Shown piece by piece: positions 25,920 to 44,770 of a DNA stretch of 64,000 nucleotides. Where the stretch lies: the NCBI GenBank assembly GCA_023957235.1, contig JAMLHI010000009.1:24683-88682 (forward strand), in the 5' to 3' direction. Made by a program: the position numbers and the translations under genes. This DNA comes from Chitinophagales bacterium (GTDB lineage Bacteria; Bacteroidota; Bacteroidia; Chitinophagales; JADIYW01). Position 1 is the first letter of the stretch, and each line of letters opens with the position of its first letter. The notes beneath the pieces were generated by a model. The model ran no database searches. It was not told the DNA's origin and worked only from the letters and a program-made list of their open reading frames with translations.

Positions 25920-28900
25920 ATGAAAAAAAATGCTACAAACTTAAATTCTCTATGCCATAATATAACCTCTGTCTTTCATAAAAGATTTCACAAGATTTTT
26001 TTTATATTATCTATTATGATAAACCTATTCATAGGTCATATCAATGCACAATCTATTATTTATGTAGATAGTAGTAAAAGTTCAAGTGGAATAGGTAATT
26101 CATGGAGTACTGCTTTTAAAACTTTAAAAGAAGCGACAATATTAGCCAATAATAATTCATCTATAAAAGAAATTAGAATTGCTAAAGGGACTTACTTTTC
26201 TACAACAAATACAAATCGTGATTCCACTTTTTTAATTAGTAGAGGTGACATCAGATTATATGGAGGATATCCAAATGGAGGAGGAACAAGAAACGTATCT
26301 TTATATCCTACTATACTCAGTGGGGATATTGGCACACTTGGAACCCATACTGATAATAGCTATCACGTAATGGTGATTGCAGGACTAGCATCTGGAGATG
26401 ATAGCGTGATAATTGATGGATTAAAAATCCGTTTTGGAAGAGCAGATGCAAATAATAGTGTAGTCTATAATGGTCAAAGCATTCCAAGAAGTTACGGAGG
26501 AGGAATAGCAATAAAAAATAATTCAAATGCTTATAAAATAAGTATAAGAAATACAATTATTTCAGGTAATTATGCTTCTAACAACGGCGCAGGAATAAAT
26601 ATAGAAGCCACCATTTCTACTTTTATCAATTGCTTGTTTTCTGGTAACTACGCTGATTATGGTGGAGCTGCTTTTAATAATTCAAACTCACATACCAATT
26701 ATATCAATTGTACGTTTGGAGGAAATCACGATAATCATTCGGGAGGAGCCATGAGAAACTCATCCTCGAATCCTGTTATCACCAATTGCATCATATATGG
26801 TAATGATGGAGGAATATCCAATAACAATAGCATTCCAGCAATTACTTATTCATTGGTGCAAGGGCTAACTGATATTTCAAATGGCAATTTGAATGGCACA
26901 AGTAATCCGAACTTTGTATCTCCTGTGCCAGCAGGAACAGTTAATATTAATGGAGATTATAGCTTACAATTGGCCAGCACATGCATTAACAAAGGAAATA
27001 ACTCAGTACTAAATGGAGTGGCTACTGATCTTGCAGGGAATACTCGTATATACAATAGCCAAGTAGAATTAGGTGCTTATGAGTTTGTTTTTTGCACAGC
27101 CACCGCCATCCTATATGTAGATAGTAGCAAATCTATCTCGGGAGATGGAGCATCTTGGAATACTGCTTTTAAAACTTTAGCAGAAGCTATAACTCGACAA
27201 TCTTGTTCAAATATCAAGGAAATACATGTAGCCAAAGGAACCTATTATCCTACTGGTGAGCAAGTAAATTTTAACAGAGATTCTACTTTTCTTATTACAA
27301 GAGGAGATATTAAAATACTTGGTGGATATCCTTCAGGGGGTGGCACAAGAAATCCATCGACATATCCTACAATATTAAGTGGGGATATCGGTGGCTCAAA
27401 TAATATATTAGACAATAGTTACCACCTCATGACTATCTCAGGAATAGGAAATACTGAAGATAGCATTATCATTGATGGATTTAGATTTATTCATTCAAAC
27501 GCTAATGGAAGTGGAACTAAAAATTTTAACGGAGCAAATATTGCTAGAAATGATGGAGGCGGTATAATCATTTGGAATGCATTAAATACTGTTAAAACAC
27601 AAATCCGAAATTGTATATTCTCTTCTAATAGAGCTGAAGATGCTGGAGGTGCAATCTTTATCGAGAATTCGACTCCTTTATTAGTCAATCTATTAGTTTC
27701 CGGAAATCTTGCAAATTATGGAGGAGGCATAGCTTTAGTTAGCGCATCTCATGCCAAATTAATCAACTGTACTATTGCTGGAAATCGCTGTGGAAGCTCA
27801 GGCGCAGGTGGAGCAATAAGAAATTCTAGCTCAAATCCAACAATAGTCAACACTATTATTTATGATAATAATTCTGGCATTTCTAATAATTCATCTATAC
27901 CCAACATATCTTATTCATTAGTGCAGAGCTTAACCTCTATAGCAAATGGAAATCTAAATGGAAATCTAATCAACCCAAACTTCATTCTTCCAATTGATTA
28001 TGCTCAGACTCCAAACTTACTAGGTGACTATCGACTACAAGCTGGTAGTGCATGCATCAACAAAGGAAACAATACTGAAGTTCCTAGTTTTATCACTACT
28101 GATTTAGAAGGAAATGAACGAATAAATTTAGGCACTGTCGAAATGGGTGCTTATGAATATGTAAACTGCCCCAATATAGAAATTGTATATGTGGATAGTA
28201 GTGTAGCATTCTCAGGAAATGGAGGAACATGGGCTAATGCATATAAAACCCTTTCAGAGGCTTTGAATTTGATACATTGCTATAATATCAAAGAAATTAG
28301 AATCGCTGGTGGAACCTATTTCCCCACTGGACTACAAAATGGCACCAATAAAGATTCTACTTTTCTCATAACCAGAGGAGGAATTAAGATAATAGGTGGA
28401 TATCCAAGTGGTGGAGGACAGAGGAATCCCGCAATTAACAAAACAATATTAAGCGGTGATATAGGTGCAAAAAACAATAATACTGACAATAATTACCATA
28501 TAATGATTATTGCTGGTATTACTTCAGGTGCAGATAGTATTATAATTGACGGGCTTAATTTCCAATGGGCCAATGCGAATGGAAGTGGTTCAAAAGTTTA
28601 TAATGGACAGACCATAGAAAGAAATAATGGAGGAGGCTTAGTAATATGGAATGTACTCAACGGCGAAAAAGTTCAAGTGAGCAATTGTGTCTTTTCTGCA
28701 AATAGAGCTGCAGATGGCGGTGCTGGATTATATCTAACTAATTCTACTCCTCTAATCATCAATTCACTTTTCAGCGGAAATCTTGCTAACTTTGGAGGAG
28801 CTACAGTTAATTATAATCAATCTCACGCAAAGTATATTAATTGTACTTTTGCAGGCAATAAAGCTGGTGATTCTGGTGGAGCGATGAGAAATTCTTCCTC

Positions 28901-31900: not shown

Positions 31901-34900
31901 TATTATTTCTGGAAATAAAGCCGAAGATGCAGGTGGCGGTATTTATAATAACAGTACATCTGCCACGTATTTAAATTGTTTGGTCACAGGAAACCTTGCA
32001 GATTATGGAGGAGGTTTTGCAAATATCCAATCATCTCATGTAAAATTGATTAATAATACCATTGCCAGCAATCGAAGTAATAATGGGAGTGCTATGAGAA
32101 ATTCAAACTCAAATCCAGAAATTACAAACTCTCTCATTTATTACAATTCTAATGGAACAATTTCAAACAATGGCTCTTCAAATCCCAAAATATCCTATTC
32201 ATTGATACAAGATAAGTTTGTTGAAACTGATAGCAATATTAATGGCAATTTAGATCCTAAGCTCGTTGCTCCTGCAAATTATGCTAATGCACCTACTATT
32301 GGGGGACAATATACTTTACTAGAAGGTAGTTCAACCCTAGACAAAGGTGACAATTTTGCCTACCAAACATCAGGAGGTAGTATTGCTTTCAATGTTGATT
32401 TAGCAAATAATATAAGAGTATATGATTATAATTATGAAGGTAGGATTGAAATAGGTGCTTATGAATTTGTTATAGCTAATTCCGGCAATACTGATATCAG
32501 TGTAATAAGATATGTAAAACCAAATGGCACAGGCAATGGCACTTCATGGGCTAATGCTTCAGGAGACTTACAAGAAATGATTAATATTTCAAATCGAAAT
32601 GATCAAATATGGATAGCTACGGGAAAATATTATCCGAATAGAAGGATTCAAGAAATAGGCACAATTACTCCCAAAAATAGAGATAACGCCTTTTTACTAA
32701 AAACAGGGATAGCTATCTATGGAGGTTTTGCAGGATTTGAAAATATTTTAAACGATAGAGATATTGAATTAAATCCTACTATTTTATCGGGAGATTTTAA
32801 CAATAACGATAGCATCAGTATCAGTCAAGATAGCATTGTATCTATTTCTTACAAAACTGAAAATGCATATCATGTACTTGTTGGCGCCAATGAGACTCAA
32901 TTCAGCCTTCATGATTTAATTATTGAAGGAGGAAATGCCAATGGTGATGGAGAAGTAAAGGTAAACAATGTCAATATTAGTCGAATTGTTGGAGGATTAT
33001 TTGCTGGTAATGGGATACAAAATATCACTATTTCTAACTGTACTTTTCAGAAAGGCTATGCTAACCATACTGGAGGTGCAATTGATATCGAAAATGGAGA
33101 TAATATAAAAATACTTGACAGTGATATAAAATACAATAGAGCAAATCATGGTGGTGGATTTACTACCAGAAACACTAGCCAATACAACAATTACTATATA
33201 GAAAATACAACGATTTTAGTTAACAATGCCAATAAAGACGGAGGAGGTGTTTTTTGCAGAAGTGGCAATACTAAAATTACCAATACTATCATATCTGGCA
33301 ATACTGCTATGACTGGCATGGGAGGAGGAGTATATGCCTCCAGAATAGAAAAAGGTTCAGATTGTAAAATGACCTTAACAGGATGTCTTGTTACAGGAAA
33401 TGTAGCAGCCACAGCTGGCGGAGGCTTGCGTCTAGCCGTATATTTTTTTGACAAAGCTTTTGAAGAGCCTGAAAAAACAAACATCAATCATTTGACTTCT
33501 GCTGTTCATAGTTGCACCTTCTCTGGAAATCGTGCTGAGAGTGGTGGTGGAATTTCTTTAAAAGAAAAGGGTGGATTACTTGAAATACAAAATTCCATAA
33601 TATGGGAAAATAGTTCTTCTATTAAGGCACACAATACAGATATATTTTTAACCTCCTCTATTATAGATGGAAGTTTTAATGGTAAAAATATTTTTAACAG
33701 AAACCCTTCTTTTATACTAGCTCCTTCTTTCAGTCTAGCACCTTTTACTGGAGGGGATTTTAGAGTACAAGATTGTAGTTATTCTATTAATTTAGGGGAA
33801 AATTCAATAGTCAAAATATTAAAAGACATTGATGGGAACCCTCGAATATATGGAGAAAACATAGATTTGGGAGCTTATGAATCTCCAATAAAAGTTCCTG
33901 TAAAAAATTATAAATATGTCAAGCAAGGAAGTACTGGTGATGGATCTTCATGGGCTAATGCTTCAGGTGACCTTCAAGATATCATCAATAAAAGTGACTG
34001 CAATATTGATATATATGTTGCAAAAGGAACCTATGTACCCATAAGACAAGCAAATAATCCCTATTCTATTACTACCATGAACAGAGATAATGCTTTTGTA
34101 CTAAAGGAGTCAATTAACATTTATGGAGGATTTGCTGGAACTGAAACAGATATTAGCCAACGAGACTTAAGCAATCCAAACAATGTTTCAATACTGAGTG
34201 GTGATTTTCTTAATAATGATTCCGTTTCTGTCGATTCCAACGGAGTACTCAATTATACAAATAATCAAGAAAATGCTTATCACGTTGTCGTCATATCCAA
34301 TAGTAATGGAATAGAATTAAATGGCTTTAAGATTAAAGGTGGTAATGCTAATAATACCAATACAAATACCATCAATAAGATTGGAGTTGATCGTAATAGT
34401 GGAGGAGGAATAGTAGTTAATAGTTCAACAAATATTGATATCAAAAATTGTACTATCGAACACAACATGGCTTCAAATGCTGGAGGAGGAATGTTTTATT
34501 ACGCCTCAAGAAACTTCAATGTACTACATTCTACTATTCAAAAAAATAAAGCTACCTATGGTGGAGGAATTATGACTAGAAATACAGTAAGGTCTGATAG
34601 TAGCAAATATGAAAATTGTAATATTCTATCCAACAATTCTATTGAAGAAGGAGGTGGAATTGCTATTAAGTCAGGGACTTCATATGTAATAAACACAAAA
34701 ATTTGTGGAAACCAATCTCTATCTAGCCATGGAGGTGGAGCTTATGCATACCGCGCACCTCATTCTGAAGGAGTTGAAGCTTTTTTCGTCAATTGTCAGG
34801 TCACTGGAAATAAGGCCAAAGGCAATGGCGGAGGGCTGCGTTTTGCACATCATTTTGATGGTGGTTATGGCTCAGACGATGTATCATGGTATGCTAAGTT

Positions 34901-37900
34901 TTATTTGTATAATACAACCGTTGCAGGAAATATGGCTACTGCTGGTGGAGGTCTGGATGCTTATGGTCGTGGAAGTGGTGCCACAATTGAAATTAACAAC
35001 TCAATTATATGGGGAAATAGCTCTATGATATCTAGCGATAGATGTGTAGTAAACACCAATTATTCCATACTAGATAATCAGTGGAATGGAGATTACAACC
35101 AATATGAATCTCCCCTATTTAAAAATGATCCTTCTTTTGCTACTGCTCCTTTTACACAAGGAGATTATTCCATAGGTCAATGTAGTCCAGCAGTAAATAC
35201 TGGAAATAATTCATATAGTATCATACCTAAATTCGATATTCAAGGAAAAAGCAGATATATAGGAAGTATAGATAAAGGCGCTTTTGAGTATCAAGATGGT
35301 GAAATATTACATGGAATAAAGTGGTATGTCAAAGAAGGGCAATCAGGAGACGGCACTTCATGGGCTACAGCATCAGGAGATTTACAAGCTATCATTAACA
35401 ATGCTACTTGTGGAGATACAATCCTCGTCGCCAAAGGAACATACTTACCTAGTAGAAAAGCAGACCAGCTAAATGTTCTTAGCCCAAATAATAGAGACAA
35501 TGCTTTTGTATTAAAATCTAATATCTCAATCTATGGAGGTTTCATAGGAAACGAAACTAATATTGCTCAAAGAGATCTTACCGATACCCTCAACTACTCC
35601 ATTTTGAGCGGAGACTTTTTAGGAAATGATGGATTGAACCCAGATGCAAATGGATTACCAAATTTTACCAATAATGGTGAAAATGCCTACCACATTTTAG
35701 TATTATCAAATGTAACTAACATTATTTTAGATGGATTCTCTATTAGTGGAGGTAGAGCCACTGAGAACAACTCATTAAAAGTAAACAAAGTAAATATCAA
35801 CAGAAATAGAGGTGCAGGCTTGACAATTAATCAAGCATATAATATTCAAATTGACAATTGTACTTTCCAAAATAGCCATGCATCAGATAATGGAGGGGCT
35901 ATTTATACCGAAAAATCTAAAATTACTATTAAAAACACTAAGGCAATTAATAATAAAGCAGATTACGGTGGAGCTTTAGGACTTAATGATGGGAATTCTG
36001 TTATAACTAATTGTATCATAGAGAAAAATCGTGCTTATCAAAAAGGAGGAGGAATTTATACTACTAAAAACAATCTAATAATAGATTCAAATACAATCAT
36101 CAGTAACCAAGCCCAAGAAGGTGGAGCACTCTTTGCTAATGAATCAGTTACAACAAATTTGAAATATTGTAAAATATCAGGAAATAGAGCAACAGATGGT
36201 GGTGGCGGTGGCATCTATAATAGTAGCTCTTCTAACCTAATAGCACTCAATTCATTAATTACTGGAAATGTTTCAACCAAATCTGGTGCAGCAATAAGAA
36301 ATAACAATACTGCTACTATCATAGGATGTACTATAGCAGGAAACAATTCCTACGACGGCGCAGGTGGGATTCGCAATGAAAATGACAAGTCACAATTAGT
36401 ACAAAACTGCATTATATATGGAAATAATTTAGGAGTTTCAGGAGCGGGGAACTATAAATACTCACTAGTGCAAAGTGGTGTTACCGGAAATACCATTTAC
36501 ACTGAAAATCCCTATTTTGTCAATTTACCACCATACGATACAGCCCCTTTTACTCATGGCGATTTTCACACTTCAGGATGTTGGCCAGTGATTAATAATG
36601 GAAGTGTTGACGGCATTTCAAAATTTATTTTCAATAAAGATTTTGATGGCAATCCTCGAATTAAAAATGACATAATAGATATCGGCGTTTATGAAACAGA
36701 AACACCAAGCCAAAAACTGTATGTTAAAGTTGGTGGTGCGGGCAATCAATCAGGTAGTTCATGGGCTAATGCAATGGGAGATTTACAACAAGCAATTAAC
36801 ATGGTATGTACCGGAGACTCTATCTTCATCGCTGAAGGTAAATATTTCCCTAATCGCAAAGCTAATGCTTTAAATATTATTACTTTAAACGATAGAAACA
36901 ACTCCTTCGTCTTAAAAAACAATATCAAATTATTTGGAGGCTTTAAGGGTACTGAATCTAGTTTATCAGAAAGAGTCATCAGCGGCATTTCGGGCACAAC
37001 ACTATCAGGAGATTTCACTGGAAATGATAGTGCATACTATGATTATAATACAAATAAAATCACATTATTAAATAACGGCGAAAATGCATTTCAAGTTATT
37101 ATAGCATCCGGATTAGAAAATATTATACTAGATGGATTTTTGATACAGGGAGGCAATACAGTAGGAAGTAGTAGTAGTTATAACCTAAAAGGAAATAACA
37201 TCAATAGAAATCATGGAGGCGGAGGACAAATCATAGACAATAAAAACTTTACTTTTAACAACCTGACATTCCAAAGGAATAGAGCCTCTTCTTATGGCGG
37301 TGGGCTAGCTATACGCAATTCTAATGGAACTATGAATAATTGTGAATTCCTTTACAACTTTTCTGACTATGCTGGAGGATTATGGGTAGATAATTCTACT
37401 ATCAATATAAAAGATATTTCTTTAGTTTCAAATACAGTATCAACTGATGGAGGAGGACTAGCTATAGGTACTCAATCATCATTAAACATCACTAATTTAT
37501 TCTCTAATAGCAATTATGCAAGTCAAAATGGTGGAGGAATAAAAGTAAATAATTCAAATGTGAAATGTAACACTTGTAACTTTGCCTACAACCTTGCGAA
37601 AAATGGGTCTGGTGGAGGTGTGATGAATACCACTAACGCTAATCTTAATTTGTCAAATACCAATATATACAATAATACAGCTGGAGATGATCATGGCGGA
37701 GGAGTTTGGAATGGTATCGAGTCTTCATTAACCATATCAAAAGGATTAATAAAAAATAATATAGCAGACAATGAAGGTGGAGGTCTTTATAACTACTCAA
37801 ATAGTACAGCATATTTAAAGTATGTAGAAATTACTGATAATACTGCATACAGAGGTGGGGGAATAGCAACTTCTGGGAATGGAACTGAACAAAACAGTGG

Positions 37901-40900
37901 AACAAGCTTAGGCTCTGCTGTCTCTTATAATGGTGGATATACATCAGTAACAAACAGTTTAATAGCCAGAAATTTAGCTAGAAAAGACGGAGGAGGAATA
38001 TTTAATAATTTCAGTTCCAAAACAGATATAGTCAATGTGACCGTAACAGCTAATACTGCGGATAATGGCGGAGGTATATATAATGATGCTGAAAAATGTC
38101 CTCCAATTCCTAATATTGGACAATATTACAAATGCTCTGACGACATAAGCACTTCTATTATAAAAAATAGTATAGTATGGGGAAATATAGTTACTAATAA
38201 TGGAGTTGGAATATATGAAGGTGTTTCTAATTATAGTTCTAAAATAGAAAATTCATTTATTGAAGGAAATAAAAATTGGTCAGATGGAAATATCAATACG
38301 GCTTATATAACACCTGAGTTTAAGAGTTTTGAAACTGGAGATTATACTTTAGTTGGCTCTAGTCTTTGTGTCAATAGTGGAAGCAATAGCTATCAATCGG
38401 GAAATGTAGATTTATTAAATCAGCCTAGAGTAGCATTTACTTATATAGACATGGGGGCTTACGAATATCAACAAGAACCTAATCAAGAAAATATTCGTTT
38501 TGTACGTCAAGGAGCTACAGGTGATGGAACCACTTGGGATAGAGCATCTGGAAATATCCAAGCAATGATTAATTCTCCTGGTGTTCGCCAAGTATGGGTA
38601 GCAGAAGGAACTTATATTCCAAGTGGAAATGGATTTATCTTAAAAAACTACGTAACAATTTATGGAGGTTTTCCTAATACCGGAAACCCATCGCTCAGCA
38701 GTCGAAACTGGGATACATATCCAACTATTTTATCTGGAAATAATATCAATAGAGTGGTTTACAATAATTTTACGGTCAATGACTCTCTCAATTCAACAGC
38801 TATTTTAAATGGATTTATTATAAAAGATGGCAACACCAATGGAAATGGTGGAGGAATGTACAATAATAATGCATCACCAAAAATAGAAAATGTCACTTTT
38901 GTCAATAATAGTGCCACTGGAGGACTAGGAGGAGGAGCTGTATATAATTCAGCATCAAATCCTATATTCAAAAATTGTATTTTCAAAGAAAATATCACTA
39001 CCGCAAATGGTGGGGCAATGTTTAATGAGCAATCTAATCCATTGATCATAAACGGATTAATTTTCTCAAATTCAGCAACTGGAGGAAGTGCAATAGCTGC
39101 TATTAATAACTCTACTTATCAACTAGTCAATACGACTATAACTAAAAATATATCTACTGCAGGAGATGTAATATTCAATGATGGGGCAAACACTGAAGCA
39201 AAAATCTTCAACTCAATAATATATAACAACCCTGACATTAATAATAATTTTACACCGAATATAGTCAATGATCAAAATGGAGCAAATACAACTGCACAGC
39301 ATTCATTAATACAATTTGGATTCCAAGGTATTGGGGTCATATCTTCTGATCCATTATTTACAAATCCTAATATTAATGACTTCTCACTTCAAGAAATGAG
39401 CCCTGCTATTAATAGTGGAAATAATCAATCTTATACTCAAACAGGTCAAGTATTAGAGGCTGATATAGACTTAAAGTGTCAAAATAGATTGATGGATTCT
39501 ATAATTGATATAGGAGCTTATGAGTTCAAAGCAGATATTGTCCCTATCAGATATGTAAAAGTTGGCGGAACTGGTAACGGAAAATCCTGGTCTGATGCTT
39601 CGGGTAATTTACAAAGCATGATTGATGCTAGAGGTGTTGAAGAAGTTTGGGTTGCAGCAGGAATCTACACTAGTCCTATTAGTGGATTTAGATTAAAAAA
39701 CAATGTAAAAGTATATGGCGCTTTCCCTTCTACTGGCAACCCTGAATTTTCTGACAGAAATATTCAATTAAATACTACTATCTTATCTGGAGAAACCACT
39801 AGAAGAATCTTCAATAACAATTTCGAAACAACACCTGAACTTGACAATTCAGCGGTTTTAGATGGCTTCACCTTGAAAGATGGATATTCAGCCGAAAATG
39901 GAGCAGCCATGTATAATTTCAATGCCTCACCTACCTTGTCTAATCTTATATTTACCAATAACTTAACCACTTCAGAAGGAGGAGCCTTATATAACTTACA
40001 ATCTAATCCAATCATTGAAAAATGTAAATTTATTTCAAATTTAGCTACAACCAAAGGAGGTGCAATTTGCAATATTACTTCTGAACCTATCATCACTAAT
40101 TCATTATTTATTCAAAATAATTCTGCTAGCGGAGGTGCAATATTTGCAGCAAATGGCTCTTCATATAAAATTACAAATAGTACTTTTAGCCAAAACACCT
40201 CTCCTTTAGGAACACTTTATCACTATGGTTCAGCAACTCAACCACAAATATATAATAGTATCTTCTATGGCAACAGTTCTGCAATTATAGAAGAAGATTC
40301 TTCTATAACTATCAAGGTCAATAATATTATTGAAGGAATAAATAGCGATAGCCTCAACTTTGATTTTGACCCAATGTTTGTAAATCCTTCCTTAGGCGAT
40401 TATACTTTACAACAAGGGAGTTCTGCAATAAATCAAGGAGAAAACTCGTGGATAATAAATGATTTGGAAGAAACAGAAATACTTAAAGACTTAGATTTGC
40501 ACCCAAGAATTTATGACTATTCTAATGGTGGAATTATTGATCTAGGAGCTTATGAATATCAAGGAAATACTAATTTTCCTATTCGTTATGTAAAAACAGA
40601 TGGCAAAGGAAATGGTAGCTCTTGGGGCAATGCAGCTGGAAGTCTGCAAGCAATGATGAATGCAAAAGATGTACAACAAGTATGGGTGGCTGAAGGAACT
40701 TATATCAGTGAAAATGATGGATGGCTATTAAAAAACAATGTAACCGTCTTAGGAGGTTTTCCTAACTCTGGAAATCCTCAAATTGAAGACAGAAATTGGA
40801 GTCAACATCCAACCGTTTTATCAGGAAATCATCAAAAAAGAATTTTTAATCATACAGGAATAATTACTAATAATGACTCAGATTCAATTACGATAAATAT

Positions 40901-43745
40901 CATAGACTCTACTGCTATATTAGATGGATTCATCCTAACTCAAGGCTATTCAGAAGAAAATGGAGCTGCAATGTATAACCAATTGGCATCTCCTACTTTA
41001 AGAAACTTAGAATTTACTAATAATCATTCCGTTCAAAATGGAGGAGCTATATACAGCTTGCTATCTAGACTCAATATCTATAATAGTAAATTTTCAAATA
41101 ATACAGCAGATAATTATGGTGGAGCTATAGCCAATGAATATTTCTCAGAAACAAAAGTTTTCAATACTGTTTTCTCAAAAAATACTGCGCAGTTAGGAAG
41201 TGTTTTTTACACAAGCGATACTTCAAAAACAATACTTGTAAATAATACTTTAACAGAAAACATTTCTTCTCAAAATACTGGAGCAATATTCACGTTTGGA
41301 GGAGGTTCAATAATCCAAGTATATAATAGCATCTTATTTCATAATGGTAAAAATATTATAGATTCTTTAGGTGCTCAAACAATCATTTTGAATTCATTAG
41401 TAGAAGGCGGATTTACTGGAAATGGAAATATCGATACAGATCCTTTATTTACTGATGCTATGCAAAATGATTATTCTCTTCAAGAATCCAGCCCTGTCAT
41501 AAATTTAGGTGACAATAATAGCTATCAAAACCAAGGAGGAAATCTACAAAACGATAAAGATTTAGCATTACAATCACGTGTTTACAATTATGCTTCTTCT
41601 GGTATAATTGATATGGGTGCTTATGAATATCAAGGCAATCCTAAGTATCCTATTAGATATGTCAGACAAAATGCAACTGGTAGTGGAACTTCTTGGGGAA
41701 CAGCATCAGGCGATTTACAAGCTATGATAAACAGTTCAGCAGTACAACAGGTTTGGGTAGCTGAAGGCTCCTATTTTAGCACAGGGAATGGATTTATTCT
41801 TAAAAATGGAGTAAAAGTTTTAGGTGGATTTTCGAGTGAAGGAAGTCCAAAGCTAGAAGAAAGAAACCCATTCAATTACAATTCTACCTTATCAGGAAAT
41901 AATGAAAGGAGAGTCTTTTATAATAATTTTTCTCCAAGTGCAAAACTAACTAATTCAGCTGTATTAGATGGCTTTACCATTACTGAAGGCAATCTGAATG
42001 CTAATGGTGCAGGGATGTATAATGCTAATGCTGATCCTATCTTAAAAAACCTAAAATTCACCAACAATCATTCAGGCACTGCAAATGGAGGTGCTATATA
42101 TAATGCAGCTGCAAACCCATTGATAATCAATTGTCAATTCTATGAAAATTCATCCTTGAATAATGGTGGTGCTATTTGTAATGCATCAGGTTCAAAACCC
42201 AATATTATCAACTGTCTGTTTTACGAAAATACTGCTACGAATAATGGTGGAGCTATTTACGCAAATAACGCTTCATCTTATCATCTTATCAATAGTACTG
42301 TTTATAATAACACTGCTAATTCAGGGGGTGGTCTGCATCATGCTGGAAGTACTACACTCCCCTTAGTGAAAAACTCTATTATTTATGGCAATACACAACA
42401 AATTATTAATAGCAGTTCGGCAGTCACTACTGTAGATTACTCTCTAATTCAAGGTGGATATTCAGGCAACCATAATCTCCAAGAAAATCCAACTTTTGAA
42501 AATGTTAATGACAAAAATTTCAACTTATCTTTAGCTTCTCCTGCAATTAATGCCGCTGACAACTCAGCACTTCCCGATTCAATAATAAAAGATTTGAATG
42601 GAAATAATAGAATAGAGCAAGATTTATTAGATATCGGGGCTTTTGAAAACAGAGGCTTCGTGCTGGCTAACACTGCTAATGATACCATTGTTTCTAATCT
42701 TAGTTACCCAAATGAAGAGGGCTGGATTCACTATTACAAATCAGATGATTCTACTTTAGTACTCTCTCTCAATACTCAAAATCAATTTTTAGGCGAGGTA
42801 GAAATCAATTCAATTCTTAATAATAATTTCGGACAAAGCAGCATTGGTTTAATTATGCCTTATGGTCAAACAAAAAATATTTATCCTGCCAACAGAAGCT
42901 GGACTATTCATGCTTCTGAAAGTTTTTCTCAACCAGTAAAAGTAAGATTTTATATTTCAGACTTAGACAGTATAGATATCATGCAAGCAATGCCTTTCCA
43001 TTCTAAAGAACAATTGGTCCTATACAAAGTCAGTGGAAATTATGTTTGGGATACTTCTTCAAATGGTTATTTAGAATATACTTTAGACACTATTGCAGAC
43101 ACTTCAACTTATGTGTATGGGAGTTTCCAAGGTATTCAATATGTCGAATTCATGGTCAATTCTTTCAGTTCTGGAACGATAGCTATGACATTAGATGAAA
43201 GTATTCTTCCTCTCGATTTAATTTCATTTATTGCAGGAGCAGTCAATGACAAAACTCAATTGCAATGGAATACGGTCAACGAGGTCAATGTTTCCCACTT
43301 TGAAATAGAGAGGAGTTCGGATGGAATTCATTGGGAAATATTATCTAGTATAAATGCAACTAACGGGATTGCTCAACAATATACTGCTTGGGACAATGCT
43401 CCACATCAAGGAGACAACTATTATAGATTAAAAATGATAGATATTGATGGCTCCTTTAAATACAGTAAAATTGTCCAAGTATTCTTTGCAAATAATAGCC
43501 TAGCTCCTGATTTCTCAGTCTATCCCAATCCTAGTAAAGGAGATTTTACAATTACTGCAAAAGACATGACTACACCTACTGCAAAAATTCAAATCTTTGA
43601 TGAATTAGGAAGAATGATATTTAACCACCAAATTAAAGAGGGGAAAAACTCAATACATCTAGAGCATCTACCTAGTGGTACATATATATTAAATATCAAT
43701 AGTTCTTTGAATACTAATATCCAAAAAATAATTATAGAGAAATAA
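25920..43745 (+). CDS. Giant (5941 aa) T9SS-secreted protein: 14 tandem right-handed beta-helix / choice-of-anchor-Q-like modules, LPxxLxSF Ig/FN3-like domain, type-A CTD
   Basis: Signal peptide ending INA-Q; modules start YV(D/K)..G.G.(S/T)W..A and end (D/E)xG(A/V)(Y/F)E; GGAI/GGGI repeats; C-terminus ILPLDLISF...YYRLKMIDIDG, FSVYPNPSKG...LPSGTYILNI...KIIIEK. Confidence 0.9.
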   Translation: MKKNATNLNSLCHNITSVFHKRFHKIFFILSIMINLFIGHINAQSIIYVDSSKSSSGIGNSWSTAFKTLKEATILANNNSSIKEIRIAKGTYFSTTNTNRDSTFLISRGDIRLYGGYPNGGGTRNVSLYPTILSGDIGTLGTHTDNSYHVMVIAGLASGDDSVIIDGLKIRFGRADANNSVVYNGQSIPRSYGGGIAIKNNSNAYKISIRNTIISGNYASNNGAGINIEATISTFINCLFSGNYADYGGAAFNNSNSHTNYINCTFGGNHDNHSGGAMRNSSSNPVITNCIIYGNDGGISNNNSIPAITYSLVQGLTDISNGNLNGTSNPNFVSPVPAGTVNINGDYSLQLASTCINKGNNSVLNGVATDLAGNTRIYNSQVELGAYEFVFCTATAILYVDSSKSISGDGASWNTAFKTLAEAITRQSCSNIKEIHVAKGTYYPTGEQVNFNRDSTFLITRGDIKILGGYPSGGGTRNPSTYPTILSGDIGGSNNILDNSYHLMTISGIGNTEDSIIIDGFRFIHSNANGSGTKNFNGANIARNDGGGIIIWNALNTVKTQIRNCIFSSNRAEDAGGAIFIENSTPLLVNLLVSGNLANYGGGIALVSASHAKLINCTIAGNRCGSSGAGGAIRNSSSNPTIVNTIIYDNNSGISNNSSIPNISYSLVQSLTSIANGNLNGNLINPNFILPIDYAQTPNLLGDYRLQAGSACINKGNNTEVPSFITTDLEGNERINLGTVEMGAYEYVNCPNIEIVYVDSSVAFSGNGGTWANAYKTLSEALNLIHCYNIKEIRIAGGTYFPTGLQNGTNKDSTFLITRGGIKIIGGYPSGGGQRNPAINKTILSGDIGAKNNNTDNNYHIMIIAGITSGADSIIIDGLNFQWANANGSGSKVYNGQTIERNNGGGLVIWNVLNGEKVQVSNCVFSANRAADGGAGLYLTNSTPLIINSLFSGNLANFGGATVNYNQSHAKYINCTFAGNKAGDSGGAMRNSSSNPTLKNTIIFGNNSGVSNNSSVPLYYNSLVQGLTSTSNGNLNGNTSNPYFIFTIDASLAPTDEGDYRIQSLGEGINVGTNTAIPSNITTDLYGNTRIYGSTVDIGAFEVSCSSTISIYVDSAKTASGNGESWATAYKTMSEALAKAQFCSSIKNIYVAKGTYFPSSINNQDGTFLISRGGLKILGGYPSGGGVRNINTNKTILSGDIGTRELDTDNSYHIMIIAGLSSGTDSVILDGFQFVWGKAVGSGTRLYNTFNIPRNAGGGLVLWSNANGAKIQIRNCIFSANRADDIGGAFYSASSSASVVNCLFSGNLANYGGAMSNANSSNTRIINCTFSGNRAGQSGGAIRNSNSSPTLINSIIYGNNSAISNNSSTTNISYSLVQDFSGTASGNIDVSANLYGTINNPLFIYEINPNLAPTLEGNFKVNLISPVINTGSTVVENTSSSIDLAGNIRISDGTIDLGAYENFCDAPSTIYVDNSRSTSGNGYTWNQAFKNLTEALALAQSCNQVNTILIAEGTYYPNFQTDRTASFVISRGNIRLIGGYPSGGGERNLQTHPTILSGDIGVKDTHSDNSYHVLVIADLESSADSVIIDGVKIFWGRADGGGTKLINGQTILQNQGGGLVLFNNQNGSKVQIRNTEISGNYASDIGAGVFLQSLSNSAPSTSFYNCLIAGNHANYGGGVGNVSSSPTFVNTTIAGNRGGNTGGGMRNSNSYPILRNTIIYGNSNGISNVGSSTPIIEYSLIQGLTSTANNNLNGNTTSPNFKYLADANTAPTISGDYSVLLNSSIIDKGNNSLLPSFMNQDLNSNLRINNSTIDLGAYESGCEVSFNTLYVDSSQSISGDGSTWLKAYKTLNEALLLANSCTNIKNIFVAKGTYYPTDLSDRDATFLISRGDLRIYGGYSNGGVIRNIYANPTILSGDIGAINSNTDNSFHVMIAAGIGAEEDSLILDGLSVFWGNANGSGSKFFNNQSIPRNSAGGLTMWNNGNADKILIKNCIISGNKAEDAGGGIYNNSTSATYLNCLVTGNLADYGGGFANIQSSHVKLINNTIASNRSNNGSAMRNSNSNPEITNSLIYYNSNGTISNNGSSNPKISYSLIQDKFVETDSNINGNLDPKLVAPANYANAPTIGGQYTLLEGSSTLDKGDNFAYQTSGGSIAFNVDLANNIRVYDYNYEGRIEIGAYEFVIANSGNTDISVIRYVKPNGTGNGTSWANASGDLQEMINISNRNDQIWIATGKYYPNRRIQEIGTITPKNRDNAFLLKTGIAIYGGFAGFENILNDRDIELNPTILSGDFNNNDSISISQDSIVSISYKTENAYHVLVGANETQFSLHDLIIEGGNANGDGEVKVNNVNISRIVGGLFAGNGIQNITISNCTFQKGYANHTGGAIDIENGDNIKILDSDIKYNRANHGGGFTTRNTSQYNNYYIENTTILVNNANKDGGGVFCRSGNTKITNTIISGNTAMTGMGGGVYASRIEKGSDCKMTLTGCLVTGNVAATAGGGLRLAVYFFDKAFEEPEKTNINHLTSAVHSCTFSGNRAESGGGISLKEKGGLLEIQNSIIWENSSSIKAHNTDIFLTSSIIDGSFNGKNIFNRNPSFILAPSFSLAPFTGGDFRVQDCSYSINLGENSIVKILKDIDGNPRIYGENIDLGAYESPIKVPVKNYKYVKQGSTGDGSSWANASGDLQDIINKSDCNIDIYVAKGTYVPIRQANNPYSITTMNRDNAFVLKESINIYGGFAGTETDISQRDLSNPNNVSILSGDFLNNDSVSVDSNGVLNYTNNQENAYHVVVISNSNGIELNGFKIKGGNANNTNTNTINKIGVDRNSGGGIVVNSSTNIDIKNCTIEHNMASNAGGGMFYYASRNFNVLHSTIQKNKATYGGGIMTRNTVRSDSSKYENCNILSNNSIEEGGGIAIKSGTSYVINTKICGNQSLSSHGGGAYAYRAPHSEGVEAFFVNCQVTGNKAKGNGGGLRFAHHFDGGYGSDDVSWYAKFYLYNTTVAGNMATAGGGLDAYGRGSGATIEINNSIIWGNSSMISSDRCVVNTNYSILDNQWNGDYNQYESPLFKNDPSFATAPFTQGDYSIGQCSPAVNTGNNSYSIIPKFDIQGKSRYIGSIDKGAFEYQDGEILHGIKWYVKEGQSGDGTSWATASGDLQAIINNATCGDTILVAKGTYLPSRKADQLNVLSPNNRDNAFVLKSNISIYGGFIGNETNIAQRDLTDTLNYSILSGDFLGNDGLNPDANGLPNFTNNGENAYHILVLSNVTNIILDGFSISGGRATENNSLKVNKVNINRNRGAGLTINQAYNIQIDNCTFQNSHASDNGGAIYTEKSKITIKNTKAINNKADYGGALGLNDGNSVITNCIIEKNRAYQKGGGIYTTKNNLIIDSNTIISNQAQEGGALFANESVTTNLKYCKISGNRATDGGGGGIYNSSSSNLIALNSLITGNVSTKSGAAIRNNNTATIIGCTIAGNNSYDGAGGIRNENDKSQLVQNCIIYGNNLGVSGAGNYKYSLVQSGVTGNTIYTENPYFVNLPPYDTAPFTHGDFHTSGCWPVINNGSVDGISKFIFNKDFDGNPRIKNDIIDIGVYETETPSQKLYVKVGGAGNQSGSSWANAMGDLQQAINMVCTGDSIFIAEGKYFPNRKANALNIITLNDRNNSFVLKNNIKLFGGFKGTESSLSERVISGISGTTLSGDFTGNDSAYYDYNTNKITLLNNGENAFQVIIASGLENIILDGFLIQGGNTVGSSSSYNLKGNNINRNHGGGGQIIDNKNFTFNNLTFQRNRASSYGGGLAIRNSNGTMNNCEFLYNFSDYAGGLWVDNSTINIKDISLVSNTVSTDGGGLAIGTQSSLNITNLFSNSNYASQNGGGIKVNNSNVKCNTCNFAYNLAKNGSGGGVMNTTNANLNLSNTNIYNNTAGDDHGGGVWNGIESSLTISKGLIKNNIADNEGGGLYNYSNSTAYLKYVEITDNTAYRGGGIATSGNGTEQNSGTSLGSAVSYNGGYTSVTNSLIARNLARKDGGGIFNNFSSKTDIVNVTVTANTADNGGGIYNDAEKCPPIPNIGQYYKCSDDISTSIIKNSIVWGNIVTNNGVGIYEGVSNYSSKIENSFIEGNKNWSDGNINTAYITPEFKSFETGDYTLVGSSLCVNSGSNSYQSGNVDLLNQPRVAFTYIDMGAYEYQQEPNQENIRFVRQGATGDGTTWDRASGNIQAMINSPGVRQVWVAEGTYIPSGNGFILKNYVTIYGGFPNTGNPSLSSRNWDTYPTILSGNNINRVVYNNFTVNDSLNSTAILNGFIIKDGNTNGNGGGMYNNNASPKIENVTFVNNSATGGLGGGAVYNSASNPIFKNCIFKENITTANGGAMFNEQSNPLIINGLIFSNSATGGSAIAAINNSTYQLVNTTITKNISTAGDVIFNDGANTEAKIFNSIIYNNPDINNNFTPNIVNDQNGANTTAQHSLIQFGFQGIGVISSDPLFTNPNINDFSLQEMSPAINSGNNQSYTQTGQVLEADIDLKCQNRLMDSIIDIGAYEFKADIVPIRYVKVGGTGNGKSWSDASGNLQSMIDARGVEEVWVAAGIYTSPISGFRLKNNVKVYGAFPSTGNPEFSDRNIQLNTTILSGETTRRIFNNNFETTPELDNSAVLDGFTLKDGYSAENGAAMYNFNASPTLSNLIFTNNLTTSEGGALYNLQSNPIIEKCKFISNLATTKGGAICNITSEPIITNSLFIQNNSASGGAIFAANGSSYKITNSTFSQNTSPLGTLYHYGSATQPQIYNSIFYGNSSAIIEEDSSITIKVNNIIEGINSDSLNFDFDPMFVNPSLGDYTLQQGSSAINQGENSWIINDLEETEILKDLDLHPRIYDYSNGGIIDLGAYEYQGNTNFPIRYVKTDGKGNGSSWGNAAGSLQAMMNAKDVQQVWVAEGTYISENDGWLLKNNVTVLGGFPNSGNPQIEDRNWSQHPTVLSGNHQKRIFNHTGIITNNDSDSITINIIDSTAILDGFILTQGYSEENGAAMYNQLASPTLRNLEFTNNHSVQNGGAIYSLLSRLNIYNSKFSNNTADNYGGAIANEYFSETKVFNTVFSKNTAQLGSVFYTSDTSKTILVNNTLTENISSQNTGAIFTFGGGSIIQVYNSILFHNGKNIIDSLGAQTIILNSLVEGGFTGNGNIDTDPLFTDAMQNDYSLQESSPVINLGDNNSYQNQGGNLQNDKDLALQSRVYNYASSGIIDMGAYEYQGNPKYPIRYVRQNATGSGTSWGTASGDLQAMINSSAVQQVWVAEGSYFSTGNGFILKNGVKVLGGFSSEGSPKLEERNPFNYNSTLSGNNERRVFYNNFSPSAKLTNSAVLDGFTITEGNLNANGAGMYNANADPILKNLKFTNNHSGTANGGAIYNAAANPLIINCQFYENSSLNNGGAICNASGSKPNIINCLFYENTATNNGGAIYANNASSYHLINSTVYNNTANSGGGLHHAGSTTLPLVKNSIIYGNTQQIINSSSAVTTVDYSLIQGGYSGNHNLQENPTFENVNDKNFNLSLASPAINAADNSALPDSIIKDLNGNNRIEQDLLDIGAFENRGFVLANTANDTIVSNLSYPNEEGWIHYYKSDDSTLVLSLNTQNQFLGEVEINSILNNNFGQSSIGLIMPYGQTKNIYPANRSWTIHASESFSQPVKVRFYISDLDSIDIMQAMPFHSKEQLVLYKVSGNYVWDTSSNGYLEYTLDTIADTSTYVYGSFQGIQYVEFMVNSFSSGTIAMTLDESILPLDLISFIAGAVNDKTQLQWNTVNEVNVSHFEIERSSDGIHWEILSSINATNGIAQQYTAWDNAPHQGDNYYRLKMIDIDGSFKYSKIVQVFFANNSLAPDFSVYPNPSKGDFTITAKDMTTPTAKIQIFDELGRMIFNHQIKEGKNSIHLEHLPSGTYILNINSSLNTNIQKIIIEK
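26055..42650 (+). repeat. 14 protein-level tandem modules (~345-590 aa), diverged at DNA level
   Basis: Approximate module ends at 27083, 28157, 29225, 30302, 31376, 32465, 33881, 35288, 36695, 38465, 39524, 40556, 41627 and 42647. Confidence 0.9.
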
Positions 43746-43998: not shown

Positions 43999-44063
43999 AA
44001 GTCTCGCCCTTCGGGTAGTTGCAAAACAATAACTACAGCTTCTATATTTCAATTAGCCTTTCA
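43999..44063. repeat. Right copy of imperfect direct repeat (includes batE stop codon and last six codons)
   Basis: aagtctcgcccttcgggtagttgcaaaacaataactacagc-ttct-atatttcaattagcctttca; contains a gtagtt/aactac hairpin. Confidence 0.92.
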
Positions 44064-44770
44064 GAAGGCATCCAACCTTTCCTATTCAAACCTACATTTA
44101 CCTTGAGCCATCCATTCTTTTCATCTAACACTTCTATTTTTTGTCCGATAAACAAATCATAAGTTTCATCAGATAACAGTGCAGGTTGATTATACATCGC
44201 TGACTCCTCCTGTACAATTGCAAACTGTTGAACATGAAGAACTCTATATAGTTTTATGCTATTAAAAATAAGATAGACAGCAAGGATAAAAAGTAGCACA
44301 GAGCTAAAGAAATAAATTTTTCTATTCTGCTTTGACACCAATAAGAAGGTGACCGACAGCAAAATAATCCAAGCCCAAGTTGCCAAAACAGACAGAGAAT
44401 ACATATTTAATTCGCCTATCTTATTTCTCCAATGTCTATCACTTTCATCCGTAAGTGCCATTTTTTTTCTAAGAAAAATAAGGTTGGATTCAGTAGCAGA
44501 TTCATTAGGTGATAATTTCAATGCTTTTTCATAAAAAGCTATTGCCCTTGCATATTTTTTTAATTGTGTACATGTATTAGCATAATTAAAAAACAATTGA
44601 AAACTTAAATTTCCCTCTTGAACCAATCCATCAAATAGCCAATAAGCCTTATCGTAATCTTTTTGCTGATACTTTAAAACCGCCTGATTAAATAATGAAT
44701 CTTGCTCATTAGCTATTAGGCTATTGGCAGAGAACATCAACATAAAAAATATCAATAGATAATGTTTCAT
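44042..44770 (-). CDS. batE: BatE (TPR + SH3b domain protein)
   Basis: Signal peptide, TPR (FNYANTC...AIAFYEKALKLSP), TM pair, SH3b (GQKIEVLDEKNGWLKV...GWMP); last gene of the bat operon. Confidence 0.85.
   Translation of the reverse strand: MKHYLLIFFMLMFSANSLIANEQDSLFNQAVLKYQQKDYDKAYWLFDGLVQEGNLSFQLFFNYANTCTQLKKYARAIAFYEKALKLSPNESATESNLIFLRKKMALTDESDRHWRNKIGELNMYSLSVLATWAWIILLSVTFLLVSKQNRKIYFFSSVLLFILAVYLIFNSIKLYRVLHVQQFAIVQEESAMYNQPALLSDETYDLFIGQKIEVLDEKNGWLKVNVGLNRKGWMPSERLIEI

What the first reader, a model, noticed from the sequence alone, without database searches (positions are those of the whole stretch)
25920..43745. 5,941-aa T9SS cargo built from 14 complete beta-helix modules
Seen: one uninterrupted 17.8-kb ORF with a signal peptide (INA-Q), 14 modules each running from a YV(D/K)...SW..A cap through GG(A/G)I-type repeats to a (D/E)xGA(Y/F)E end resembling choice-of-anchor Q, then an Ig-like domain and a type-A CTD. 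Known: type-A CTDs route proteins through the T9SS, whose motor genes gldKLMN-porP lie 10 kb away. Inference: a very long surface filament or adhesin, lectin or polysaccharide-active array. An end motif usually seen once per protein is used here as an internal repeat unit 14 times.
Basis: partly seen in the sequence, partly recalled or inferred. Interest (0 to 1): 0.75.

Follow-up and report, generated by a model that had tools for sequence, protein, structure and literature searches.

The report
Giant 14-module beta-helix surface protein
This is a real 5,941-residue secreted protein of an uncultured wastewater Chitinophagales bacterium, built from 14 beta-helix domains in a row and most likely a long sticky surface fibre; it belongs to a very large, widespread family that nobody has studied, so it is a large member of a known kind and not a new kind.

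Summary
The ORF 25920-43745(+) is uninterrupted (5,941 aa). Independent metagenome assemblies reproduce it without indels. It has a Sec signal peptide (INA|Q) and 14 complete modules. After the modules come a weakly modelled beta-rich region, an Fn3/Ig-like domain and a type-A T9SS CTD. An AlphaFold model of module 2 (pLDDT 97) is a capped right-handed beta-helix. Its nearest solved structures are A. baumannii RbtA (function unknown) and pectate lyase Pel9A.

The modules fall into four old classes in the order A6-B3-C1-D4. Identity is 24-33% between classes.

The claim of unusualness fails. The choice-of-anchor-Q motif is simply the C-terminal cap of this domain type. More than 100 giant proteins carry 2-19 such modules. 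About 360,000 protein clusters match the module profile. Collinear 14-module orthologues at 71-72% identity exist, and none is characterised.

No conserved charged residue lies in the helix core, and no enzyme-family signature was found. I therefore favour a PorU-processed, surface-attached adhesive fibre of roughly 90 nm.

Extra findings:
- The membrane-bound AraC-type regulator upstream is conserved with the gene.
- The two genes form a 20-kb insert flanked by ~60-bp direct repeats, and a congener shows the empty site.
- Junction-specific cysteine pairs occur between class-A modules.

The parts
23884..23943 (+). Left copy of the ~60-bp direct repeat that bounds the 20.1-kb insert. It starts at the stop of the 243-aa ORF.
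   Evidence: The 35-nt core pattern has only two copies in the 3.0-Mb genome.
24520..25695 (+). Membrane-embedded AraC-family regulator (391 aa). The first ~250 residues are very hydrophobic, apparently several membrane-spanning segments (judged by eye). The C-terminus carries HTH_18/HTH_AraC. It is the conserved upstream partner of the giant gene.
   Evidence: Pfam PF12833 and PF00165. Sequence. An orthologue (58-60% identity) lies directly upstream of the orthologous giant gene in congener G002.
25920..26051 (+). Sec signal peptide (aa 1-44), predicted cleavage INA|Q
   Evidence: Sequence. Orthologues have the same architecture with VNA|Q. Q-rule from PMC5837995. No predictor was run.
26052..32468 (+). 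Class A modules M1-M6, 345-357 aa each. Nucleotide ranges: 26052-27086, 27105-28160, 28179-29228, 29244-30305, 30321-31379, 31398-32468.
   Evidence: 46-60% pairwise identity. AF2 model of M2 has pLDDT 97.2 and is a right-handed beta-helix. Linker-Cys/N-cap-Cys pairs occur at junctions M1/2 to M5/6.
32502..36698 (+). Class B modules M7-M9, 461-462 aa each. Nucleotide ranges: 32502-33884, 33906-35291, 35316-36698.
   Evidence: 37-41% identity to each other and 24-33% to other classes. DNA period is 1404-1410 nt.
36711..38468 (+). Class C module M10 (586 aa). It is the longest module and the least conserved between orthologues (50-52%).
38490..42650 (+). Class D modules M11-M14, 334-351 aa each. 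Nucleotide ranges: 38490-39527, 39543-40559, 40578-41630, 41649-42650.
   Evidence: 40-47% identity. Chlam_PMP/POMP repeat hit in M14.
42651..43211 (+). Tail region A (aa 5578-5764): beta-rich region with no family match. Found only in the orthologues and in two shorter relatives (P0010, P0012).
   Evidence: AF2 shows beta strands at pLDDT ~40-73. jackhmmer distribution. No Pfam hit.
43212..43490 (+). Tail domain B (aa 5765-5857): Fn3/Ig-like beta-sandwich. It commonly precedes the CTD in related T9SS cargo.
   Evidence: AF2 pLDDT 81-89. Foldseek hits to FnIII tandems. Present before the CTD in many homologues.
43509..43745 (+). Type-A T9SS C-terminal sorting domain plus stop codon
   Evidence: PF18962 at 55-60 bits and TIGR04183 at 48 bits. 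Foldseek against 8glk_D, a chain of a T9SS complex with bound substrate NucA: TMt 0.88, rmsd 2.1 A, 34% identity.
44001..44065 (+). Right copy of the direct repeat. It overlaps the 3' end of batE (44042-44770, minus strand).
54060..59665 (-). T9SS core genes gldN, gldM, gldL, gldK and a porP/sprF-family gene
   Evidence: TIGR03523, TIGR03517, TIGR03513, TIGR03525 and TIGR03519 all score above their cut-offs.

Best explanation
The gene encodes a 629-kDa cell-surface fibre.

Export and attachment. The Sec system exports it (signal peptide cut at INA|Q) and it folds in the periplasm. The T9SS carries it across the outer membrane through its type-A C-terminal domain. The PorU sortase then removes that domain, which in studied species leaves such cargo attached to the cell surface (inferred here).

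Mature protein. It is a chain of 14 self-contained right-handed beta-helix domains. Each has its own N-terminal cap (YV.....G.G.SW..A helix), about 11-20 PMP-type coils (FxxN...GGA[ILV]) and a C-terminal cap, which is the choice-of-anchor-Q motif. Linkers are only 7-14 residues long. At five class-A junctions, cysteine pairs probably staple the linker to the next cap. If extended, the chain would be a semi-rigid rod of roughly 90 nm with its N-terminal class-A modules pointing outward.

Function. The caps and the Gly/Asn skeleton are conserved while the coil surfaces vary. I read the modules as binding surfaces (adhesin or lectin-like) and not as enzymes. They would hold the cell to floc polysaccharide, other cells or particles in activated sludge.

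Regulation. Expression is probably controlled by the adjacent membrane-bound AraC-type regulator, which travels with the gene.

Shown: ORF, modules, fold, CTD, presence of T9SS, PorU and SprA, family size, conserved regulator pairing, insertion. Inferred: surface attachment, rod geometry, disulfides, adhesion.
For: - ORF and the 14 modules.
- Family signatures.
- AF2 model of M2: pLDDT 97.2, pTM 0.95, all-beta helix.
- Foldseek top hits are RbtA 9cdv and Pel9A 1ru4. The profile hits the RbtA sequence at E 5e-15, including the C-cap D..G..R...D.GA.E.
- The CTD superposes on 8glk_D, a chain of a T9SS complex with bound NucA (TMt 0.88).
- GldKLMN and PorP lie in the window. PorU (1232 bits) and SprA (2426 bits) are elsewhere in the genome.
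- In the 73-sequence alignment, the only nearly invariant positions in the helix core (M2 positions 105-290) are 11 Gly/Asn and one Ile. Conserved charged residues sit in the first coils and the caps.
- No polysaccharide-lyase, hydrolase or esterase Pfam family matches at E<=0.01.
- Collinear 14-module orthologues at 50-88% identity per module show long-term purifying selection on the whole array.
- PMP-type GGA(I,L,V)/FxxN repeats form beta-helix coils (PMC11166332). They mediate adhesion in Chlamydia Pmp proteins (PMC2997323).
- An upstream linker Cys co-occurs with a Cys 26-44 residues downstream in 56 of 68 modules, against 146 of 774 without it.
- Short 99-100% identical contigs occur in a cDNA-labelled run and in a metatranscriptome. 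This is weak evidence of transcription.
Against: - No experiment exists on any member of the family. RbtA, the closest solved structure, has no known function (PMC12643943).
- The fold is shared with many polysaccharide lyases, hydrolases and esterases. A module-specific active site that is not conserved across classes would escape my conservation test.
- Rod geometry, length and disulfides could not be measured, because the tools return no coordinates and no module pair was modelled.
- Surface attachment after PorU cleavage is extrapolated from Porphyromonas. Many type-A cargos in other Bacteroidota are released instead.
- The transcription evidence is weak and could be DNA carry-over.
Confidence: 0.6

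Rival explanations
1. It is a multi-enzyme array. Some or all beta-helix modules would be polysaccharide lyases, glycoside hydrolases or esterases with different specificities, strung together like a multi-depolymerase tailspike. The fibre would then degrade several exopolysaccharides at the cell surface.
For: - Foldseek hits after RbtA are Pel9A (PL9), PelA (PL1), PL6 alginate lyase, fucoidan lyase, GH110, CE8 pectin methylesterases and RbmB.
- Four divergent module classes could mean four specificities.
- The habitat is rich in exopolymers: activated sludge, biofilm and soil.
Against: - No enzyme-family HMM matches.
- TM-scores to enzymes are only 0.27-0.48 at 10-16% identity.
- No conserved acidic or basic residue lies in the helix core across 73 homologous modules.
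- Class B, C and D modules have no PDB sequence match at all.
- No PUL, SusC/D or other CAZyme gene lies beside it.
Confidence: 0.2
2. It is a non-adhesive structural or protective coat element, such as a spacer, glycocalyx scaffold or anti-grazing/anti-phage shield. In this reading length matters more than binding specificity, which would explain why module number varies among congeners.
For: - Module number differs within one genus: 14 modules in G000 and G002; shorter tail-related frames of 2,453-3,362 aa (modules not counted there), or none, in the other four genomes. Shorter database relatives P0008/P0010/P0012 carry 7-8 modules.
- The class order is kept while the class copy number changes.
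- The gene sits in a relocatable cassette, typical of strain-variable surface features.
Against: - Nothing direct supports this reading.
- Orthologous modules are held at up to 88% identity. That suggests specific surfaces are under selection, not just bulk.
- There is a single copy per genome, and low word depth in the cDNA-labelled run (a poor measure of expression) gives no hint of coat-like abundance.
Confidence: 0.12
3. It is an artefact: a mis-assembled repeat region, or a decaying gene that is no longer made.
For: Giant repetitive ORFs in MAGs are a classic source of assembly error. The public gene call for this protein starts 32 codons later (P0002, 5,909 aa).
Against: - Modules share only 60-75% DNA identity, too low to collapse.
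- Independent assemblies from other studies reproduce the sequence with no indels.
- Two orthologues of 5,932 and 5,938 aa are collinear.
- There is no internal stop in 17.8 kb at 34% GC.
Confidence: 0.02

Closest known systems
Uncharacterised 'choice-of-anchor Q domain-containing / right-handed parallel beta-helix repeat-containing' giant proteins of Bacteroidota. Examples: the 5,938-aa protein of Chitinophagales bacterium ACE_NR_BACT7 (contig JAMLHJ010000005.1) and the ~7,856-aa Pedobacter proteins.
   Same: The module is the same: N-cap, PMP-type coils and a choice-of-anchor-Q C-cap, repeated in tandem 2-19 times. Many end in a T9SS CTD, often preceded by the same Fn3/Ig-like domain. The ACE_NR_BACT7 protein is a collinear 14-module orthologue (71% identity).
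   Different: This protein is at the upper end for module number; 19 was the most seen. It consists of beta-helix modules only, while the Pedobacter proteins add Big/Ig, MBG and other domains. None of these proteins has a tested function.
Rhombotarget A (RbtA) of Acinetobacter baumannii, PDB 9CDV/9CDU (PMC12643943)
   Same: It is the best structural (Foldseek E 3e-6) and sequence-profile (E 5e-15) match. It is a single beta-helix domain of the same type, including the C-cap motif D..G..R...D.GA.E, and it is a cell-surface protein.
   Different: RbtA has one module, not 14. By its name and family annotation it is a rhombosortase target (my own knowledge, not checked in the paper), whereas this protein has a T9SS CTD. 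It belongs to a different phylum. Its function is also unknown, so it gives no functional transfer.
Chlamydial polymorphic membrane proteins (Pmp21/PmpD) (PMC2997323, PMC11166332)
   Same: The coils carry the GGA(I,L,V) and FxxN repeat signature (PF02415 and TIGR01376 above cut-off). In Pmps these repeats form a beta-helix and mediate adhesion.
   Different: Pmps are type V autotransporters with one long passenger helix and a C-terminal beta-barrel. Here there is no barrel, secretion is by T9SS, and there are 14 separately capped helices.
SprB and RemA of Flavobacterium johnsoniae (giant T9SS-secreted surface adhesins; own knowledge)
   Same: They show that the T9SS can export >600-kDa surface adhesins that form long filaments. 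The likely mode of action is similar.
   Different: SprB uses a type-B CTD and SprB repeats, is not a beta-helix, and is propelled for gliding. No SprB-repeat or type-B CTD signature is present here (CHU_C scores 21 bits against a cut-off of 27).
Pectate lyase Pel9A (PL9), PDB 1RU4
   Same: It is the second-best fold match and has the same kind of capped right-handed beta-helix.
   Different: Identity is 14% and TM 0.43. No pectate-lyase family HMM hit was found, and no conserved catalytic or Ca-binding constellation was detected.

Membership tests
T9SS type-A CTD cargo | C-terminal ~75-aa beta-sandwich sorting domain matching TIGR04183/PF18962 above cut-off | tested here: met
   TIGR04183 scores 48 bits (cut-off 23). 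PF18962 scores 55-60 bits (cut-off 27). The AF2 CTD superposes on 8glk_D, a chain of a T9SS complex with bound NucA (TMt 0.88).
T9SS type-A CTD cargo | N-terminal Sec signal peptide | tested here: met
   A basic n-region, a hydrophobic core and INA|Q are present and conserved in orthologues. This was read by eye and no predictor was run.
T9SS type-A CTD cargo | Genome encodes the T9SS machinery, including translocon and sortase | tested here: met
   GldK/L/M/N and PorP, PorU and SprA all score above their curated cut-offs.
T9SS type-A CTD cargo | Secretion actually depends on the T9SS, and the CTD is cleaved | not testable with these tools
   This needs proteomics of wild type against a gldK or porU mutant.
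Choice-of-anchor Q domain proteins (NF041518) | Match to NF041518 above 25 bits | tested here: met
   The two halves score 158.7 and 140.8 bits. 11 of the 14 module ends are detected individually.
Right-handed parallel beta-helix (PF13229) domain | Predicted fold is a right-handed parallel beta-helix | tested here: met
   PF13229 scores 100 and 66 bits. The AF2 model has pLDDT 97.2, and its top Foldseek hits (E<=0.001) are all right-handed beta-helix proteins. Only module 2 was modelled. The other 13 modules are assigned by homology.
Chlamydial Pmp autotransporter family | GGA(I,L,V)/FxxN repeats | tested here: met
   PF02415 scores 23.4 bits (cut-off 20.6). TIGR01376 scores 24.7 bits (cut-off 15).
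Chlamydial Pmp autotransporter family | C-terminal autotransporter beta-barrel (type V secretion) | tested here: not met
   No autotransporter domain was found in the Pfam or NCBIfam scans. The C-terminus is a T9SS CTD. The protein shares the repeat but is not a family member.
Polysaccharide lyase / glycoside hydrolase beta-helix enzymes (PL1, PL9, PL6, GH28, GH110, CE8) | Match to a family HMM and a conserved catalytic or Ca-binding residue set in the central groove | tested here: not met
   No such Pfam family matches at E<=0.01. The only nearly invariant core positions in 73 modules are Gly, Asn and one Ile. Class-specific sites were not examined in 3D.
Rhombotarget A family | GlyGly-CTERM/rhombosortase sorting signal (defining feature taken from my own knowledge of the family) | tested here: not met
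   The C-terminus is a type-A T9SS CTD. Only the beta-helix domain is homologous.

The most novel reading that the evidence does not exclude
These proteins may define a distinct, undescribed class of T9SS surface organelle. It would be a length-tunable rod made by concatenating individually capped beta-helices head to tail in a fixed class order (A-B-C-D-tail). In this reading the rod grows or shrinks by class-internal duplication: 7 modules in P0008 against 14 here. Linker-to-cap disulfides stiffen it at class-A junctions. Different classes present different glycan-binding or glycan-cutting faces at defined distances from the cell. The gene and its own membrane-bound AraC sensor would move between genomic sites as a two-gene cassette.
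Probability: 0.2. Interest if true: 0.6.

Novelty: new member of a known kind. Interest (0 to 1): 0.4.

Why it matters
Giant proteins of this family are among the largest genes in many Bacteroidota. They are very common: about 360,000 clusters at 50% identity match the module profile. Yet no member has a known function.

This locus is a clean example for study. It consists of beta-helix modules only, has four ordered classes, a collinear orthologue, shorter relatives, a dedicated regulator and a complete T9SS. The organism recurs in wastewater and activated-sludge metagenomes, where cell-to-floc adhesion matters in practice.

It does not change any current concept. Its value is as a well-dissected entry point to an unstudied family.

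Tried and rejected
- Tandem Repeats Finder found no module-scale repeat. The modules are too diverged, so the periodicity only shows at 60-75% DNA identity.
- Class B, C and D modules searched singly against PDB sequences gave nothing.
- A full-text search for 'choice-of-anchor Q' found no paper.
I reached its context through the search for related loci and the genome search instead.
I could not confirm it.
- Runs X1 and X6 were listed as holders but laid no contigs on the gene body. I did not use them.
- No Bacteroidota-type promoter or intrinsic terminator was identified. The downstream scan found no terminator, and the upstream sequence was not analysed further.
- I considered modelling a module pair to test rod geometry and the cysteine staple. 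I dropped it because the tool returns no coordinates or inter-residue distances. I used the second structure job on the tail instead.
Full report
**1. The observation**

The window holds one open frame, 25920-43745 on the + strand, of 5,941 codons. The region has 33-37% G+C and a positive GC and AT skew that mark its + strand coding against mostly minus-strand neighbours.

A regular-expression scan finds exactly 14 C-terminal motifs [DEK]xG[AV][YF]E and 14 N-terminal motifs [YF]V[DKR]...G..W. They alternate strictly. HMMs that I built from the 14 N-caps and 14 C-caps recover 14/14.

The curated models agree.
- NCBIfam choice_anch_Q (NF041518) scores 158.7 and 140.8 bits on the two halves (cut-off 25).
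- Pfam gives Beta_helix, Chlam_PMP and Por_Secre_tail.
- NCBIfam gives TIGR04183, the type-A sorting domain.
- In the whole-genome scan NF041518 sees 11 of the 14 ends. Modules 6, 8 and 9 escape it.

The gene is not an assembly artefact. Module DNA is only 60-75% identical and Tandem Repeats Finder sees no module-scale repeat. Contigs from independent activated-sludge and soil metagenomes cover the gene at >99% identity without a single indel, one of them 13.4 kb long. Short 99-100% identical contigs in a cDNA-labelled run and one in a metatranscriptome give weak evidence of transcription.

**2. Anatomy**

*Signal peptide.* Residues 1-44 form a long signal peptide (...HKRFHK-IFFILSIMINLFIGHINA|Q). 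The orthologues have the same layout with VNA|Q. A Gln at +1 is the Bacteroidetes rule for signal peptidase I substrates (PMC5837995). The public gene call (P0002, 5,909 aa) starts at Met33. That start would delete the basic n-region, so the longer start is better.

*Module classes.* The 14 modules fall into four classes by pairwise identity.

| Class | Modules | Length (aa) | Identity within class |
|---|---|---|---|
| A | M1-M6 | 345-357 | 46-60% |
| B | M7-M9 | 461-462 | 37-41% |
| C | M10 | 586 | single module |
| D | M11-M14 | 334-351 | 40-47% |

Between classes identity is 24-33%. Linkers are 7-14 residues long.

*Tail.* After M14 come 364 residues. An AlphaFold model (12-sequence alignment, mean pLDDT 69) resolves three beta regions.
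- A weakly modelled ~190-aa region with no family match.
- A confident Fn3/Ig-like sandwich (pLDDT 81-89).
- The CTD.

Foldseek matches the tail to FnIII tandems. It matches the CTD to 8glk_D, a chain of a T9SS complex with the substrate NucA bound (TMt 0.88, rmsd 2.1 A, 34% identity).

The mature protein is about 629 kDa, has pI 5.1 and is rich in Asn, Gly, Ser and Ile.

**3. The fold**

Module 2, modelled with a 73-sequence alignment of the 14 modules and single-module homologues, gives pLDDT 97.2 and pTM 0.95. The model has a short N-terminal strand, a cap helix and then about 11 coils of short strands.

Foldseek against the PDB puts A. baumannii Rhombotarget A first (9cdv, E 3e-6) and pectate lyase Pel9A second (1ru4). 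Other right-handed beta-helix enzymes follow at TM 0.27-0.48 and 10-16% identity.

A profile search of PDB sequences also finds RbtA (E 5e-15). That alignment runs through the C-cap motif D..G..R...D.GA.E. The choice-of-anchor-Q motif is therefore simply the C-terminal cap of this beta-helix type. RbtA is a surface protein of unknown function, crystallised as a design target (PMC12643943), so no function can be transferred from it.

**4. How common is it**

This does not hold.
- A search limited to proteins of similar length returned 227 hits. In the 120 best, my cap HMMs count 2-19 N-cap/C-cap pairs per protein. Examples are P0006 with 19 in 6,961 aa and Pedobacter 'choice-of-anchor Q domain-containing proteins' of ~7,856 aa with 11.
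- The same genome has a second frame of 2,669 aa with at least five C-caps.
- A profile search of 1.84 billion cluster representatives finds 359,234 matching proteins, 122,638 of them at E<=1e-30. Many have numerous matched stretches.
- Single-module relatives occur in Planctomycetota, Chloroflexota, Armatimonadota and others.
- No hit carries a functional name, and a full-text search for 'choice-of-anchor Q' found no paper.

**5. Orthologues and module evolution**

Two near full-length homologues exist: P0003 (5,932 aa, 72% identity) and P0004 (5,938 aa, 71%; Chitinophagales bacterium ACE_NR_BACT7). A contig-truncated third, P0005, also exists.

P0004 is collinear module for module, at 50-85% identity. 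These values exceed the within-protein identities, so all 14 modules predate the split of the two species and have been kept since. M2 is the best conserved module, followed by M4, M14, M1, M3 and M12. M10, M7 and M8 are the least conserved.

Among six genomes of the genus, only two carry the 14-module gene. Three have open frames of 2,453-3,362 aa carrying a 47-50% identical tail-A region (their modules were not counted), and one has none. The 7-module protein P0008 has its modules in the same class order, A-B-B-C-?-D-D. The 14-module form therefore looks like an expansion within classes of a conserved class order.

**6. Junction cysteines**

In this protein a Cys lies in each of the five linkers between class-A modules (392, 750, 1105, 1464, 1822). 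A second Cys lies 37-39 residues later, at the end of the next module's cap helix (429, 787, 1143, 1502, 1861). M1 has no preceding module and lacks both.

Across 842 N-caps in the homologue set, an upstream Cys is accompanied by the downstream Cys in 56 of 68 cases. Without an upstream Cys the figure is 146 of 774. The cases are not phylogenetically independent.

A linker-to-cap disulfide is a reasonable inference for a protein that folds in the periplasm. I could not measure distances.

**7. Context**

*Downstream.* The Bat (aerotolerance-type) operon occupies 44042-52114. gldN, gldM, gldL, gldK and a porP-family gene lie at 54060-59665. PorU and SprA are elsewhere in the genome.

*Upstream.* At 24520-25695 lies a 391-aa protein whose first ~250 residues are very hydrophobic, apparently several membrane-spanning segments (judged by eye), with a C-terminal AraC-type HTH. 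Its orthologue (58-60% identity) again sits directly upstream of the giant gene in the congener, while all other neighbours differ.

*The insert.* In this genome the pair, plus ~600 bp of non-coding DNA, is bracketed by a ~60-bp direct repeat at 23884-23943 and 44001-44065. The core of the repeat occurs only at these two places in the 3.0-Mb genome. The right copy overlaps the 3' end of batE.

In the congener the 243-aa ORF and batE are convergent and 12 bp apart. That is an empty site. There the cassette lies between a Cys/Met PLP enzyme gene and an efflux operon. The PLP enzyme's orthologue in this genome is on another contig.

So the regulator and giant gene form a unit that has been relocated or inserted, with a long target duplication. 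A proposed transposase fossil next to the left repeat had no Pfam match.

**8. Function**

In the 73-sequence alignment the nearly invariant positions in the helix core are Gly and Asn plus one Ile. These are turn and ladder residues. Conserved charged residues (R82, D94, D333, R339, E351 in M2 numbering) lie in the first coils and the C-cap. D94 is replaced by N or E in class D. No lyase, hydrolase or esterase family model matches.

The coils carry the FxxN...GGA(I,L,V) signature of chlamydial Pmp proteins. There these repeats form the beta-helix (PMC11166332) and mediate adhesion (PMC2997323).

The most likely reading is a non-enzymatic adhesive fibre. With about 11 coils per short module, proportionally more for classes B and C, and 4.8 A per coil, the array would be of the order of 90 nm if extended. 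This is an estimate from the secondary structure, not a measurement.

Attachment by the C-terminus after PorU cleavage would place the class-A modules (most of them among the better conserved) farthest from the cell. An enzyme array remains a serious rival, because the fold is that of many polysaccharide-active enzymes and class-specific sites were not examined in three dimensions.

**9. Verdict**

The protein is a large, clean member of a very common but unstudied family of multi-module beta-helix T9SS cargo. It is not a new kind of system.

The added value of this analysis is fivefold:
- the four ordered module classes;
- the collinear orthologue and shorter relatives;
- the co-varying junction cysteines;
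- the conserved membrane-bound AraC partner;
- the demonstrated insertion with an empty site in a congener.

Noticed in passing
window 23884-23943 and 44001-44065; L021 (G002:C22:119900-122400): A ~60-bp direct repeat, with only two copies in the genome, brackets a 20.1-kb insert that holds non-coding DNA, the AraC-type gene and the giant gene. The insert lies between a 243-aa ORF and batE. In a same-genus genome those two genes are convergent and 12 bp apart, which is an empty site. The long target duplication suggests transposition or site-specific integration, but no intact recombinase is present.
   Followed up: yes
The 98-codon frame 23984-24280(-) gave no Pfam match at E<=0.01, so I could not confirm it. 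From my own knowledge, IS1634-type elements make long target duplications, which would fit the 60-bp repeat.
   Followed up: partly
window 24520-25695: The AraC-family regulator has a very hydrophobic N-terminal ~250 residues, apparently several membrane-spanning segments (judged by eye), with no family match. It would be a membrane-bound one-component regulator. It stays adjacent to the giant gene in the congener although every other neighbour differs.
   Followed up: partly
G000:C11:~263500-268100, G000:C11:111866-111982 and G000:C1:172320-172499: The same genome encodes a second multi-module choice-of-anchor-Q protein (2,669-aa frame, at least 5 C-caps) and a 490-aa single-module one. A 2,495-aa frame shares only the end of the tail-A region.
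   Followed up: no
window 32469-32501 and class B modules (aa 2619, 3088, 3554; 2694, 3164, 3630): Class B and C modules have a Cys in the N-cap helix but none in the preceding linker. Class B modules also have a Cys in the C-cap (FRVQDCSYS, SIGQCSPA, HTSGCWPV). These may form a different, intra-module or cross-junction disulfide pattern from class A.
   Followed up: no
window 44042-52114: A complete Bat-type operon (BatE-like TPR, BatD, BatB/C fusion, BatA, DUF58, MoxR AAA_3 ATPase) lies directly downstream on the minus strand. Its batE 3' end was the insertion target.
   Followed up: partly
window 43879-44500 in runs X1 and X6: Two wastewater/sludge runs were listed as holding 98% of the sampled words of 41000-43745, yet laid no long contig on the gene body. 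They showed high depth only from ~43.9 kb onward, together with many 31-nt contigs at 43939-43971. This may be a strain without the insert, a short repeated element, or an indexing quirk.
   Followed up: no
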